Position numbers and translations under genes: made by a program. A stretch of DNA of 64,000 nucleotides, taken from assembly GCA_963826935.1 (NCBI GenBank), contig CAWGYH010000002.1, positions 712,028-776,027 of the forward strand. The letters are read 5' to 3'. Source of the stretch: an uncultured Chlamydiales bacterium. Lineage in GTDB: Bacteria > Chlamydiota > Chlamydiia > Chlamydiales > FEN-1388. The notes below the pieces were generated by a model that was not told where the DNA came from, did not search any database, and saw nothing but the letters and a program-made list of their open reading frames with translations. Positions 36,668 to 38,417 of the stretch are shown here, one piece after another (positions within the stretch are counted from its first letter, which is position 1; every line of letters starts with the position of its first letter).

Positions 36668-38305
36668 ATGATGAATGCACTGATAGATGAACTGTATGCC
36701 TGGATGAAACTACCTGAAAGTGCTCATCTTGAGTTTAAAGAAGCCAAAAGCAATTATGACAGTGAGAAGTTGACTCAATACTGCTGTGCACTTGCAAATG
36801 AAGGCGGTGGAAAGTTTATTTTAGGCGTATCAGATAAACCGCGTGCAATTGTGGGAAGTCAAGCATGTTCTAATTTAGAGAAAACGAAATCAGATCTAAT
36901 TACAAGGCTTCAGCTTCGAATTGAGGTAGATGAAATACATCCTGAAGGCAAAAGAGTTGTTATTTTCCATGTTCCTGCAAGGCCTATTGGAGTTCCTATT
37001 CAAATTAAGGGTTTATATTGGATGAGGCGAGGAGAGGAACTTGTGCATATGACTCAAGATATGCTCAAGAGAATCTTTGAGGAAGGAGTGCCTGATTTTT
37101 CTGCTCAAGTTTGCAAGCATGCAAAATTTGAGGATTTGGATTCTAAGGCCATCTCGCGGTTTCGTGAGTTGTGGCATAAACAGACTGGAAATGGAGCATT
37201 GAGAAACAGCTCTGATGAACAACTACTTAAGGATTGCGAAGCTGTTGTGCAAAAGGGTATTACATATGCCGCGCTCATACTATTTGGAACGTCGAAAGCC
37301 CTTGGAGAGCATCTTGCGCAAGCAGAAGTTGTTTTCGAGTACCGCTCAGGATATGTTATAGGGCCTGCGCAGCAGCGAGTAGAATATAGACAAGGATTTT
37401 TCTCATATTATGACGAACTTTGGGAAACGGTAAATCTGCGAAACGATATTCAGCATTTTCAGGACGGTCTTTTTATCTGGAAAATACCCACCTTCAATGA
37501 AAAAGTGGTTCGAGAAGCTGTCTTAAACGCTATTTCCCACCGTGATTATAGAGCTTCTGGTTCCATATGGGTAAAACAGTACCCCCGAAAAATTATTATT
37601 TCTAGCCCTGGCGGGCTCCCTCCGGGCATTACTCCTGAGAATATCCTTTGGAGGCAAGACCCGCGCAATAGACGAATTGCTGAGATTTTTTCTAAATGTG
37701 GGTTAGTTGAGAGAGCCGGTCAGGGCACAGATAGGATTTTTGAGGAAAGTATAAGACAGGGAAAATCCTTACCTGATTTTGCTCATACAGATGAATATCA
37801 AGTGGTATTGACATTGGATGGTGAAATTCAAGATGAGCGATTTTTGAGGTTTTTGGAAAAGGTAGGCAAGGAGAGAGTGGCCTCTTTTAGAACGGAGGAC
37901 TTTTTGGTTTTGGACTATGTACATAAGGAGCGACGTCTCCCTTCTGAACCCCCAGAGCTGAAAGTTCGTTTAAAGCAATTAGTTGATTTAGGCATTATTG
38001 AACAACTGGGCCGCGGGCGGGGCACTCGCTATATTCTTTGCCATCGTTTTTATGAAGAGATGGGCAGAAGCGCAGAATATACGAGAAAGCGAGGGCTTGA
38101 TAAGGAGACAAATAAGCAGCTTTTACTGAGCCATATTCACTCAAATGCCAAAATAGGAGCTAAATTTGCTGAGTTGACTCAGGTTTTGCCAATGCTTTCT
38201 CCTAACCAAGTCAAACAACTGGTTAAAGAGCTAAAGGCTCAGGGTAAAATCTGTTCAATGGGGAACACGAAGGCTAGTTTATGGTATCCGGTGGCTGAAG
38301 GGTAA
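36668..38305 (+). CDS. AlbA_2 (Schlafen-like) domain protein with a RecG-C-terminal-like HATPase_c_4/wHTH region
   Basis: N-terminal ESAHLEFKEAKSNYDSEKLTQYCCALANEGGGKFILGV (AlbA_2 signature). Central AVLNAISHRDYRASGSIWVKQYPRKIIISSPGGLPPGIT and NRRIAEIFSKCGLVERAGQGTDRI. A paralog lies at 52099-53727. Confidence 0.75.
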   Translation: MMNALIDELYAWMKLPESAHLEFKEAKSNYDSEKLTQYCCALANEGGGKFILGVSDKPRAIVGSQACSNLEKTKSDLITRLQLRIEVDEIHPEGKRVVIFHVPARPIGVPIQIKGLYWMRRGEELVHMTQDMLKRIFEEGVPDFSAQVCKHAKFEDLDSKAISRFRELWHKQTGNGALRNSSDEQLLKDCEAVVQKGITYAALILFGTSKALGEHLAQAEVVFEYRSGYVIGPAQQRVEYRQGFFSYYDELWETVNLRNDIQHFQDGLFIWKIPTFNEKVVREAVLNAISHRDYRASGSIWVKQYPRKIIISSPGGLPPGITPENILWRQDPRNRRIAEIFSKCGLVERAGQGTDRIFEESIRQGKSLPDFAHTDEYQVVLTLDGEIQDERFLRFLEKVGKERVASFRTEDFLVLDYVHKERRLPSEPPELKVRLKQLVDLGIIEQLGRGRGTRYILCHRFYEEMGRSAEYTRKRGLDKETNKQLLLSHIHSNAKIGAKFAELTQVLPMLSPNQVKQLVKELKAQGKICSMGNTKASLWYPVAEG

Positions 38306-38314
38306 TAATGGTTT

Positions 38315-38417
38315 TTGACCCAATTCTGACCTAATCTTGACCCAATTCTGACCTAATTCTTAGAGACAAATCGCCCTGAATTAATCAGCCTGTAATGGTT
38401 GTATTTGACCTAATTCC
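38315..38417 (+). repeat. 11-bp-period direct-repeat array TGACC(C/T)AAT(T/C)(C/T)
   Basis: TGACC starts at 38316, 38327, 38338 and 38349 (exact 11-nt period), with a fifth copy at 38406. The array begins 10 nt after the AlbA_2 stop. Confidence 0.85.

What the first reader, a model, noticed from the sequence alone, without database searches (positions are those of the whole stretch)
36668..38417. Paralogous AlbA_2/Schlafen-like genes, each followed by its own diverged 11-bp-period repeat array
Both islands carry a ~545-aa AlbA_2 plus RecG-C-like/wHTH protein (36668-38305 and 52099-53727). They are collinear and roughly two-thirds to three-quarters identical by eye. They share similar TTGAC(A/T)-N18-TAT promoters. 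Within 10-14 nt of each stop codon begins an array of direct repeats with exact 11-nt (one helical turn) spacing. The unit sequence differs between the two arrays. It is TGACC(C/T)AAT(T/C)(C/T) x4 (+1) at 38315-38417, against (T/C)GGAGCAAG x3 (+2) plus AATTC-N5-6 units at 53741-53925. Both arrays share an AATTCTG(A/G)C core. A DNA-binding protein paired with a co-varying iteron array suggests a cognate protein-site cassette (autoregulation, exclusion or defence, or an origin-like site). I have not seen this described for this family, but I cannot check databases.
Basis: partly seen in the sequence, partly recalled or inferred. Interest (0 to 1): 0.65.

Follow-up and report, generated by a model that had tools for sequence, protein, structure and literature searches.

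The report
Schlafen defence gene with own DNA-site array
Each of the two Schlafen-type (AlbA_2 + GHKL ATPase + winged-helix) genes is followed by a short array of 11-bp repeats that looks like the binding site of its own C-terminal DNA-reading helix. The same gene-plus-array cassette recurs across many bacterial phyla and seems not to have been described.

Summary
Two paralogs (36668-38305 and 52099-53727, 69% identical) have AlbA_2/Schlafen, HATPase_c_4 and C-terminal winged-helix (wHTH) domains. Each is followed 10-13 nt after its stop codon by 11-bp-period direct repeats: TGACCYAATTC x4+1 and TGGAGCAAGTT x3 plus 4 variants.

The arrangement is family-wide. In 82 loci from about 20 phyla, 65 have at least 2 and 38 have at least 3 locus-specific N5-YAAK units within 150 nt after the stop. 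Only 10 and 1 do so upstream. An independent set of 64 metagenome loci gave the same result.

Units are uniform within a locus but differ between loci, and they co-vary with the predicted recognition helix of the last wHTH. A C just 5' of YAAT goes with Lys/Arg at residue 516 (14/14 loci). A G goes with Gln (63/67). This arose in at least 9 separate lineages and matches both paralogs here.

Arrays occur whatever the neighbouring gene is, so integrase arm sites and replication origins are disfavoured. Better arm-site candidates (TGGGGGARTT pairs) flank the att copies.

The most likely reading is a cis array of the protein's own binding sites, which assembles a DNA-bound oligomer at the 3' end of the gene. 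Whether that regulates transcription or keeps the tRNase latent is unresolved. Published work on this family does not mention the arrays.

The parts
36609..36638 (+). Promoter-like site of paralog 1 (TTGACT-18-TATTTT, TG-extended)
   Evidence: By eye it is homologous to the site upstream of paralog 2. Consensus match only.
36668..38305 (+). Paralog 1: Schlafen/AlbA_2 + GHKL (HATPase_c_4) + tandem wHTH protein, 545 aa. The database copy P0001 starts at the second ATG, 36671.
   Evidence: Pfam. Ex4ExK motif E17..E22.K24 sits in invariant or near-invariant columns. AlphaFold2 model, pLDDT 86. Fold matches to 3LMM, SLFN5/11/12/14, histidine-kinase ATPase domains and wHTH proteins.
38198..38239 (+). 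Codons for the predicted recognition helix of the last wHTH of paralog 1 (SPNQVKQLVKELKA, residues 511-524; K516, Q517)
   Evidence: The columns with the highest mutual information to the unit class lie here.
38316..38359 (+). Array 1, proximal cluster: four TGACCYAATYY units at exact 11-bp spacing
38406..38416 (+). Array 1, distal unit TGACCTAATTC, after a 46-nt spacer
52038..52067 (+). Promoter-like site of paralog 2 (TTGACA-18-TATGTT, TG-extended)
   Evidence: Consensus match only.
52099..53727 (+). Paralog 2: Schlafen/AlbA_2 + GHKL + wHTH protein, 542 aa, 69% identical to paralog 1
   Evidence: It is P0025, on the same 1.6-Mb contig as P0001.
53629..53670 (+). Codons for the predicted recognition helix of paralog 2 (SRSQVQKLLIELKS; Q516, K517)
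   Evidence: The helix SRSQVQKLLYELKK goes with CGGAGCAAT x4 in the independent locus L146.
53741..53773 (+). Array 2, proximal cluster: three YGGAGCAAGNT units at 11-bp spacing
53841..53927 (+). Array 2, distal cluster after a 67-nt A+T-rich spacer: TGGAGCAAGCC (53841), CGGAGCAATTC (53861), TGGCGTAATTC (53872), TGGCGCAAATT (53917)
47374..47473 (+). Remnant of a third module. An internal gene fragment (82% to 37338-37381) is fused to sequence homologous to 53974-54034. The 3' half of the gene and the array are deleted.
   Evidence: families D6, D11.

Best explanation
The two genes encode prokaryotic Schlafen proteins of the 'Schlatpase-wHTH' type: an AlbA_2/Schlafen RNase domain with an intact Ex4ExK motif, a GHKL ATPase domain and C-terminal winged helices.

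The repeats that start 10-13 nt after each stop codon are most likely a cis array of binding sites for that protein's own last wHTH. One 8-9-bp site, NNNN-Y-A-A-K, occurs per helical turn. The variable bases are read by recognition-helix residues 512, 513, 516, 517 and 520. Paralog 1 (K516/Q517) reads GACCYAAT and paralog 2 (Q516/K517) reads GGAGCAAG, so the two cassettes would not cross-talk.

Shown by comparison:
- The array belongs to the gene family, not to the island.
- Array and helix co-vary.

Inferred:
- Several protomers bind side by side on one face of the DNA, often with a second cluster beyond an A+T-rich spacer. This builds a DNA-bound oligomer at the 3' boundary of the gene.
- The oligomer acts as an operator or roadblock for transcription across that boundary. 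In R-M and Hma operons this is the region in front of hsdR or hmaB.
- Alternatively or additionally, it holds the tRNase in a tethered, latent state until infection releases it.
For: (1) Family-wide presence.
- At least 2 in-register units lie within 150 nt after the stop in 65/82 loci from about 20 phyla, and at least 3 units in 38/82. Controls gave 10/81 and 1/81 upstream, 8/82 and 1/82 in coding sequence, and 17/82 and 4/82 in shuffles.
- This was replicated in 64 non-redundant metagenome loci: 42 and 28 downstream, against 9/60 and 1/60 upstream.
- A cruder 8-mer test gave a mean top-motif count of 4.8 against 3.1-3.2 in controls.

(2) Position.
- The first unit starts a median 13 nt after the stop.
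- Spacing between adjacent units is 11 bp (37 cases) or 10 bp (15 cases).
- Locus-specific unit density is 25/kb in the first 150 nt after the stop and 0.6-1.0/kb everywhere else.

(3) Units are uniform within a locus but differ between loci. This points to a locus-specific binder, and the only conserved neighbour is the gene itself.

(4) Co-variation with the helix.
- The AlphaFold2 model (pLDDT 86) places helix 511-523 as the third helix of a terminal wHTH.
- The alignment columns most informative about unit class are 512, 513, 516, 517, 520 and 523, which lie on one helical face.
- The base just 5' of YAAT is C with K/R516 in 11/11 loci, and G with Q516 in 36/38 (Fisher p about 1e-8).
- Out of sample the counts are 3/3 and 27/29 (p = 0.002 and 1e-5).
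- K517 tracks GGCGCAAT, V517 tracks GTTGCAAT and T517 tracks GA[CT]GCAAT.
- The K/R+C state falls in at least 9 separate lineages on a tree of residues 1-470. Even within the C-terminal domain its nearest relatives are mostly Q+G.

(5) Independence from neighbours.
- Arrays are equally frequent when the next gene is convergent (18/21) or co-directional (33/47).
- Neighbouring genes range from HmaA/HmaB and type I/III R-M genes to ALAD, IspD and Ham1.

(6) More distant relatives show the same feature.
- Relatives at 24-47% identity also carry repeats after the stop: L081, L082, L083, L085 and L168.
- In two hsdM-hsdS-X-hsdR operons the ACGCAAA sites bracket an A+T-rich TATAAA stretch just before hsdR.

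(7) DNA rather than RNA.
- 27% of units are inverted.
- There is no RNA-structure signal (z = -0.2, 1.1 and 0.1) and no Rfam family.

(8) Literature.
- This architecture is the commonest class of prokaryotic Schlafen, and members act as anti-phage tRNases (PMC13056530).
- It is described as a predicted backup effector in BREX and BREX-related loci (PMC12839542).
- The SLFN-GHKL module switches between an inactive filament and an ATP-driven active tetramer in SLFN-pAgo (bioRxiv 10.64898/2026.05.29.728809).
Against: - There is no direct binding evidence. Everything rests on comparative sequence analysis and a predicted structure without DNA.
- By my detector, 17/82 and 22/64 loci show at most one unit.
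- The rule has exceptions: L057 (R516 with G), L075 (Y516), L156 (K516 with G) and L122 (S516).
- The helix codons lie less than 100 bp from the array, so recombination that co-transfers both could inflate the association. argue against a single co-transferred module but do not exclude many small exchanges.
- There are no sites at the gene's own promoter, so simple autorepression is unlikely and the functional consequence of binding is unknown.
- The Slfn-HisKinase proteins tested in E. coli gave no defence against the phage panel used (PMC13056530).
- In this window neither array precedes a defence gene. Array 1 precedes the integrase gene. Array 2 precedes an att remnant.
Confidence: 0.7

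Rival explanations
1. The arrays are arm-type binding sites of the island's tyrosine integrase. These are tandem sites about 10-11 bp apart, as in lambda-type attP arms.
For: - The window holds two tandem islands at tRNA-Thr, with att copies at 36429-36478, 44957-45006 and 54170-54219.
- Array 1 lies about 230-330 nt upstream of the int gene at 38647-39720.
- Array 2 lies about 250-430 nt from the att remnant.
Against: - The same arrays follow homologous genes in R-M, Hma and housekeeping contexts across phyla. Integrase was not among the common neighbour families.
- Units co-vary with the Schlafen protein's own helix.
- Array 1 is 1.85 kb from the att core.
- Island 2 has no intact integrase.
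- A better candidate exists. TGGGGGARTT pairs 11 bp apart flank the att copies at 36544/36555 and 44800/44811, with a further copy at 44933 and one inverted at 38491-38500 just upstream of int.
Confidence: 0.03
2. The arrays are iterons of a replication origin for the island or satellite: two iteron sets flanking an A+T-rich region, as in SaPI, P4 or iteron plasmids.
For: - The layout is two clusters of direct repeats with an A+T-rich spacer.
- The islands carry a DUF3987 primase/helicase-like gene and a CHC2 zinc-ribbon fragment. The fragment lies directly upstream of paralog 2.
Against: - Arrays occur after homologs inside chromosomal operons and next to housekeeping genes, with no replication genes nearby.
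- They track the Schlafen gene, not DUF3987 or the primase fragment.
- The unit sequence co-varies with the Schlafen wHTH.
- The DUF3987 gene here is frameshifted.
Confidence: 0.03
3. The repeats act at the RNA level. They would be a repeated 3'-UTR motif bound by the RNA-binding Schlafen/AlbA or wHTH domains, serving as mRNA autoregulation or a type III-like RNA antitoxin.
For: - Arrays start 0-20 nt after the stop, and no intrinsic terminator lies in between here. They are therefore probably transcribed.
- Proximal units are strongly biased to the coding strand, 101 against 26.
- The protein carries an RNase domain.
- Some tandem wH domains bind RNA, for example SelB, which appears among the fold matches.
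Against: - 27% of units are inverted, which gives equivalent sites only in double-stranded DNA.
- The co-varying residues follow the classic HTH recognition-helix pattern. Lys/Arg pairs with a C:G base pair.
- There is no structure signal or Rfam family.
- A 10-11-nt period is far shorter than the roughly 36-nt units of known type III antitoxins (my own knowledge).
Confidence: 0.08
4. The arrays bind some other protein, either a host factor or a neighbouring gene product. They only appear to co-vary with the Schlafen helix because the two are physically linked.
For: - The helix codons are less than 100 bp from the array, so recombination can co-transfer them.
- In operon contexts the arrays lie in front of hsdR or hmaB, whose expression another regulator could control.
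Against: - No other gene is a conserved neighbour.
- A universal host factor would not explain locus-specific units.
- The residue-to-base rule recurs in at least 9 lineages, including within closely related C-terminal domains. It also replicated out of sample.
Confidence: 0.1
5. The repeats are functionless products of replication slippage in A+T-rich 3' intergenic DNA.
For: Short tandem repeats arise easily. Copy number varies from 2 to 7 between loci.
Against: - They persist across about 20 phyla at the same position.
- They share a YAAK core (CGCAAT is present downstream in 63/141 loci against 6/142 upstream).
- They keep a helical-turn period.
- They co-vary with the protein.
Confidence: 0.02

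Closest known systems
Prokaryotic Schlafen-GHKL ('Schlatpase') proteins with a C-terminal HTH. This is the pSlfn HisKinase-HTH class of PMC13056530, the 'Schlafen-minimal histidine kinase-wHTH' backup effector of PMC12839542, and the Schlatpase supradomain of bioRxiv 10.64898/2026.05.29.728809.
   Same: The domain order, the Ex4ExK nuclease motif and the conserved GHKL motifs are the same. So is the association with R-M, BREX-related (Hma) and island contexts.
   Different: Those papers treat the HTH as an undefined sensor and do not mention any DNA element next to the gene. Here the gene carries a conserved 3' array that co-varies with the wHTH. The two copies in this window are orphans in tRNA-Thr islands of a chlamydia-like genome.
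ParR/parC of plasmid R1: ten 11-bp iterons in two clusters of five flanking the par promoter (my own knowledge).
   Same: Both have 11-bp direct repeats, one per helical turn, in two clusters separated by an A+T-rich core next to the gene for the binder. Cooperative one-face binding is expected.
   Different: ParR is a small ribbon-helix-helix protein and parC lies upstream at the promoter. No ParM or ParA partner is present here. The binder here is a 545-aa RNase-ATPase and the sites lie 3' of the gene.
Iteron-binding initiators (RepA, RepE, pi) and SaPI Rep/ori (my own knowledge).
   Same: A winged-helix protein sits next to directly repeated cognate sites. Specificity differs between related elements, and the repeats flank an A+T-rich region.
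   Different: There is no homology to Rep families and no replication-gene context in most loci. Units are 10-11 bp rather than 17-22 bp.
R1 RepA-CIS-oriR cis action (my own knowledge).
   Same: The binding site lies directly downstream of the gene, so nascent protein can be captured in cis. Here the wHTH is the last part synthesised and the sites start about 13 nt after the stop.
   Different: That system serves replication initiation. Cis capture here is only an inference.
PrrC anticodon nuclease in the EcoprrI type Ic R-M operon (cited in PMC13056530; gene order from my own knowledge).
   Same: A latent tRNase gene sits between hsdS and hsdR, as in L083 and L085. It serves as a second-line effector.
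   Different: PrrC is unrelated in fold. It is held by protein-protein contact with the R-M complex and has no DNA-binding domain or site array.
Controller (C) proteins and C-boxes of R-M systems (reviewed in PMC3874152).
   Same: An HTH protein encoded inside an R-M operon has operators near the restriction gene's promoter. This resembles the two ACGCAAA sites before hsdR in L083 and L085.
   Different: C proteins are about 80-100 aa, bind inverted repeats upstream of their own gene and autoregulate. Here the sites are direct repeats 3' of the gene, and none lie at its own promoter.
Arm-type sites of lambda/P4-type integrases (my own knowledge).
   Same: Both are tandem direct repeats about 10-11 bp apart within an integrated island.
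   Different: The arrays follow the Schlafen gene, not the integrase. The TGGGGGARTT pairs flanking the att copies fit the arm-site role better.

Membership tests
Prokaryotic Schlafen-GHKL-wHTH (Schlatpase-HTH) | N-terminal SLFN_AlbA_2 domain with the Ex4(E/D)xK catalytic motif | tested here: met
   Pfam PF04326, E 2.9e-14 and 8.6e-17. E17, E22 and K24 lie in invariant or near-invariant columns. Both paralogs read E-S-x-H-L-E-F-K.
Prokaryotic Schlafen-GHKL-wHTH (Schlatpase-HTH) | GHKL-type ATPase domain (PF13749 HATPase_c_4) following the SLFN domain | tested here: met
   Pfam E 3.1e-15 and 1.1e-14. N287, S313-G315-G316 and E348-R349-G351-Q352-G353 are invariant. Fold matches to histidine-kinase catalytic domains.
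Prokaryotic Schlafen-GHKL-wHTH (Schlatpase-HTH) | C-terminal helix-turn-helix or winged-helix domain(s) | tested here: met
   The AlphaFold2 model shows two helix-helix-helix-hairpin modules at about residues 389-456 and 478-540. Fold matches include MarR-, ScpB-, SelB- and C34-like winged helices.
Prokaryotic Schlafen-GHKL-wHTH (Schlatpase-HTH) | tRNA cleavage and anti-phage activity | not testable with these tools
   Shown for other pSlfn architectures (PMC13056530). The HisKinase-type proteins tested there gave no defence.
Integrase arm-type sites | Sites co-occur with the integrase and flank the att core on the arms | tested here: not met
   Arrays follow the Schlafen gene in loci whose neighbours are R-M, Hma or housekeeping genes. 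Array 1 is 1.85 kb from the att core. Other repeats flank the att copies.
Iteron replication origin | Adjacent Rep or primase-helicase gene whose presence tracks the iterons | tested here: not met
   No Rep family appears among the neighbours of 72-77 loci. One upstream neighbour is a DnaB-like helicase. Units track the Schlafen wHTH instead.
Iteron replication origin | Supports autonomous replication | not testable with these tools
   This needs a replication assay.
ParR/parC-type centromere | Partition NTPase (ParM or ParA) and a small RHH/HTH adaptor encoded alongside | tested here: not met
   No such Pfam hits were found in the two islands or among the common neighbours.
Type III toxin-antitoxin (repeat RNA antitoxin) | Tandem repeats of about 34-45 nt upstream of the toxin gene, forming structured RNA units | tested here: not met
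   The period is 10-11 nt, the repeats are downstream, 27% of units are inverted, and there is no structure signal or Rfam hit.
R-M controller (C) protein / C-box | Small HTH protein with an inverted-repeat operator upstream of its own gene | tested here: not met
   The protein is 545 aa. Unit density in the 150 nt upstream is at background, 0.69/kb against 25/kb downstream.

The most novel reading that the evidence does not exclude
The array is a cis 'DNA leash' for a suicidal tRNase. Newly made Schlafen-GHKL-wHTH protomers are captured on the sites directly behind their own gene and held as an inactive, DNA-templated oligomer. When infection removes the DNA from the wHTH, the protomers are freed. 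Host-chromosome degradation or DNA-mimic anti-restriction proteins aimed at the neighbouring R-M, BREX or Hma system could both do this. The freed protomers would tetramerise through the ATP-bound GHKL domain and cleave tRNA. The same would happen if the locus itself were lost. In effect a DNA element would play the part of antitoxin and infection sensor.
Probability: 0.2. Interest if true: 0.9.

Novelty: new variant of a known kind. Interest (0 to 1): 0.7.

Why it matters
Schlafen-GHKL proteins with a C-terminal HTH are the most abundant class of bacterial Schlafens (PMC13056530). They are embedded in R-M, BREX and related loci in over a thousand taxa (PMC12839542). What their HTH 'sensor' recognises is not known, and the members tested gave no phenotype.

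A conserved, gene-linked array of candidate cognate sites, with a readable residue-to-base rule, gives that domain a concrete ligand. It also makes several questions directly testable:
- Does the DNA array switch the nuclease off or on?
- Does the array control the neighbouring restriction or methylase genes?
- Must constructs for defence assays carry the array?

Finally, it yields orthogonal protein-site pairs, such as the two in this window, which could serve as tools.

Tried and rejected
- Integrase arm sites. Rejected because the arrays follow the gene in contexts without an integrase. TGGGGGARTT pairs fit the arm-site role better.
- Replication origin. Rejected for lack of Rep context.
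- Structured RNA or a known RNA family. Fold z-scores are about 0 and only the tRNA hits Rfam.
- Operator at the gene's own promoter. Unit density upstream is at background. Neither unit occurs near the promoters in the window.
- Operator that exists only for a co-directional downstream gene. Arrays are equally frequent before convergent genes.
- IHF site in the spacer. The strict consensus occurs in only 6/154 loci against 1.2 expected, always in the same orientation. This is suggestive but too rare to build on.
- Sigma-70 scans near the arrays gave nothing above shuffles.
- An att remnant between array 1 and int was sought by eye and with the repeat finder. None was convincing.
- NCBIfam gave no named family for the protein.
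- PADLOC hit only pAgo or SIR2-associated models that share the SLFN-GHKL module.
- The look-up of encoding contigs did not reveal the source organism.
- Two align_proteins calls failed on loci where my stop-codon extension ran through an internal stop. Those loci were dropped.
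Full report
**1. What is in the window**

A tRNA-Thr(cgt) gene lies at 36398-36472. Copies of its 3' end recur at 44957-45006 (98% identical) and at 54170-54219 (68%, decayed). The finding therefore sits in two tandem integrated islands, about 36473-45006 and 45007-54219.

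- Island 1 carries paralog 1 (36668-38305), array 1, a tyrosine integrase (38647-39720), a frameshifted DUF3987 gene and a TPR protein.
- Island 2 carries a methyltransferase, a MarR-like gene, a DUF1016 fragment and a decayed third copy of the gene (47374-47473). It also carries a duplicate of the TPR region, a degenerate recombinase, a CHC2 zinc-ribbon fragment, paralog 2 (52099-53727) and array 2.

Both paralogs are on one 1.6-Mb contig in the protein database. Their nearest named relatives come from Parachlamydiaceae and other Chlamydiota metagenome-assembled genomes.

**2. Check of the observation**

The description is accurate.

- The paralogs are collinear and 69% identical. Both hit SLFN_AlbA_2 and HATPase_c_4.
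- Array 1 has four exact-period units at 38316-38359 and a fifth at 38406. All five perfect matches to TGACCYAATYY in the 64-kb window lie in this array.
- Array 2 has three units at 53741-53773. After a 67-nt A+T-rich spacer there are four variant units between 53841 and 53927.
- The arrays start 10 and 13 nt after the stop codons.
- TG-extended TTGAC(T/A)-18-TAT(T/G)TT sites precede both genes. They are consensus matches only.

There are two small corrections. The fifth unit of array 1 is out of the 11-nt register. The shared 'AATTCTGRC core' is the junction between unit tail and unit head. The real common core is YAA(T/G).

**3. The array belongs to the gene family**

The protein has thousands of close homologs (5415 with E <= 1e-20), 55-78% identical across phyla. 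I fetched 80 genomic loci from Chlamydiota, Verrucomicrobiota, Planctomycetota, Chloroflexota, Desulfobacterota, Latescibacterota, Acidobacteriota, Nitrospirota, Bacillota and others.

Reading the 190 nt after each stop codon shows the same thing again and again:

| Locus | Repeat after the stop |
|---|---|
| L001 | CGTGYAATYY x5-6 |
| L005 | AATTCGGCGC x5 |
| L006 | TTCCAACCTAA x3 |
| L008, L071 | GTTTTACGCAA x4 |
| L031 | CGGCGCAATAT x3 |
| L053 | CCGACGCAATT x3 |
| L055 | AACGGCGCAAT x3 |
| L062 | GTTTGGCGTAA x4 |

I then counted clusters of N5-Y-A-A-K 9-mers within 150 nt of the stop, allowing one mismatch in the first six bases and scanning both strands.

| Region | Loci with >= 2 units | Loci with >= 3 units |
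|---|---|---|
| 150 nt after the stop | 65/82 | 38/82 |
| 150 nt before the start | 10/81 | 1/81 |
| Coding sequence | 8/82 | 1/82 |
| Shuffled downstream | 17/82 | 4/82 |

Further points:
- Adjacent units are 11 bp (37 cases) or 10 bp (15 cases) apart. The first unit starts a median 13 nt after the stop. Proximal units are mostly on the coding strand (101 against 26), while distal ones are often inverted.
- The locus-specific unit occurs at 25/kb in those 150 nt. Elsewhere it occurs at 0.6-1.0/kb. That covers the 150 nt upstream, the coding sequence, the stretch 150-400 nt downstream and the far flanks.
- CGCAAT is present downstream in 63/141 loci against 6/142 upstream.
- Relatives at 24-47% identity on plasmids and in a gut contig also have repeats after the stop.

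**4. Who binds the array**

Units are uniform within a locus and different between loci. This calls for a locus-specific binder, and the gene itself is the only conserved neighbour.

An AlphaFold2 model (pLDDT 86.4) shows a terminal winged helix. It has helices at 478-491, 499-505 and 511-523, and a hairpin at 527-540. The alignment columns most informative about unit class are residues 512, 513, 516, 517, 520 and 523. These lie on one face of the third helix, in the classic HTH reading positions.

A simple rule emerges:
- When the base just 5' of YAAT is C, residue 516 is Lys or Arg in 11/11 loci.
- When that base is G, residue 516 is Gln in 36/38 loci (Fisher p about 1e-8).
- Residue 517 tracks the next bases. 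K goes with GGCGCAAT, V with GTTGCAAT and T with GA[CT]GCAAT.

Several checks address shared ancestry:
- On a tree built from residues 1-470 only, the K/R+C state appears in at least 9 separate lineages. Paralog 1 is sister to paralog 2 and L001, which are both Q+G. L006 is sister to L004 and L007.
- With the helix excluded, the C-terminal domains closest to K/R proteins are mostly Q proteins. L006 and L007 are 84% identical there.
- I fixed the rule and then tested it on 64 non-redundant metagenome loci. Arrays were again present (42/64 and 28/64, against 9/60 and 1/60 upstream). The rule held at 3/3 and 27/29 (p = 0.002 and 1e-5). K517 went with GG[CA]G[CT]AAT in 6/6 loci.

Both paralogs here conform. 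K516/Q517 goes with TGACCYAAT, and Q516/K517 goes with TGGAGCAAG.

**5. What it is not**

- Integrase arm sites and origin iterons are disfavoured because neighbours vary widely. About 11/77 upstream genes are SNF2+NOV_C helicases (PADLOC HmaA), with DUF1156 methylases (HmaB) downstream. Others are type I or III R-M genes, AAA_21, or housekeeping genes such as ALAD, IspD and Ham1.
- TGGGGGARTT pairs 11 bp apart flank the att copies, and one lies just upstream of int. They are better arm-site candidates.
- There is no RNA-structure signal and no Rfam family.
- Arrays are as frequent before convergent genes as before co-directional ones. They are therefore not merely the operator of a downstream gene.

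**6. How it most likely works**

Shown by comparison: a gene-linked array exists and co-varies with the protein's own recognition helix.

Inferred: several protomers bind side by side, one per helical turn. Often there is a second cluster beyond an A+T-rich spacer.

Two consequences are plausible, and they do not exclude each other.

- (a) Transcriptional control at the 3' boundary. In hsdM-hsdS-X-hsdR operons (L083, L085), two ACGCAAA sites bracket a TATAAA-containing stretch just before hsdR. In Hma operons the array lies between the gene and hmaB.
- (b) Latency. In SLFN-pAgo the same SLFN-GHKL module is inactive in a sensor-driven filament. It becomes active as an ATP-driven tetramer (bioRxiv 10.64898/2026.05.29.728809). 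A DNA-templated row of protomers could be the equivalent off state.

The family is described as a backup effector next to methylation-based defences (PMC12839542). Other Schlafen architectures are anti-phage tRNases (PMC13056530).

I put about 0.8 on 'the array is bound by the adjacent protein's wHTH'. I put about 0.4 on (a) and about 0.3 on (b) as the main consequence.

**7. Novelty**

The protein family is known. The array is not mentioned in the papers that define the family, and I found no description elsewhere in the searchable library. The general logic of a DNA-binding protein with adjacent iterated cognate sites is well known from ParR/parC, Rep/iterons and C-boxes. I therefore rate this as a new variant of a known kind, with high practical interest for work on bacterial Schlafens.

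Noticed in passing
window 36398-54219: Two tandem islands sit at tRNA-Thr(cgt). The 3' end of the tRNA is repeated at 44957-45006 (98%) and at 54170-54219 (68%, with a 3-nt deletion). Only island 1 has an intact tyrosine integrase (38647-39720). Island 2 has only a weak XerA-like remnant (50169-51089).
   Followed up: partly
window 36544-36564, 44800-44820, 44933-44942, 49145-49165, 38491-38500 (-): TGGGGGARTT repeats, mostly in pairs 11 bp apart, flank the att copies, and one lies just upstream of int. There are 14 matches in the window against 7.8 expected. They are candidate integrase arm-type sites.
   Followed up: partly
window 41337-42826: A DUF3987 (primase/helicase-like) gene is split into two overlapping ORFs, 41337-41684 and 41684-42826. 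They cover profile positions 2-67 and 72-363, so this is a frameshift or pseudogene.
   Followed up: no
window 43493-44907 and 47843-49251: A 1.4-kb duplication (77-96% identical) carries a 146-148-aa hydrophobic ORF and a 229-aa TPR protein on the minus strand, together with their upstream region.
   Followed up: no
window 47103-47291, 54243-54278, about 51985-52020: A DUF1016_N (YhcG-like nuclease) fragment and two shorter look-alike tails lie next to the Schlafen modules. This suggests that a DUF1016 gene was once their neighbour or their insertion target.
   Followed up: no
L014, L018, L024, L065 (about 80-150 nt after the stop): Latescibacterota loci carry a second, unrelated 10-11-bp array beyond the GCATAA or ACGCAAT units: TTTAAGTGCA x7, GTATAAAATAC x4 and AAAATGGGTAT x4. 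The binder is unknown.
   Followed up: no
L016, L020, L035, L040, L091, L094 (20-65 nt after the stop): A TAAC-N4-TTGAT(A/T) motif matching the IHF consensus occurs in the A+T-rich spacer, always in the same orientation. It is found in 6/154 loci against 1.2 expected. Looser versions seem commoner by eye.
   Followed up: partly
L006 (about 140 nt after the array); phage records MK448484 and related: In a Verrucomicrobia locus the array is followed by a tRNA-Thr(CGT) gene in reverse orientation. Distant family members sit at the integrase-proximal end of Streptococcus satellite phages (Javan). The module seems to favour island edges.
   Followed up: no
L010, L040, L047, L053, L056, L068, L077: In Hma (helicase-methylase-ATPase, BREX-related) operons the Schlafen gene's start overlaps the hmaA stop (ATGA). 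The array sits between the gene and the DUF1156 methylase hmaB, so the gene is a fixed operon member there.
   Followed up: partly
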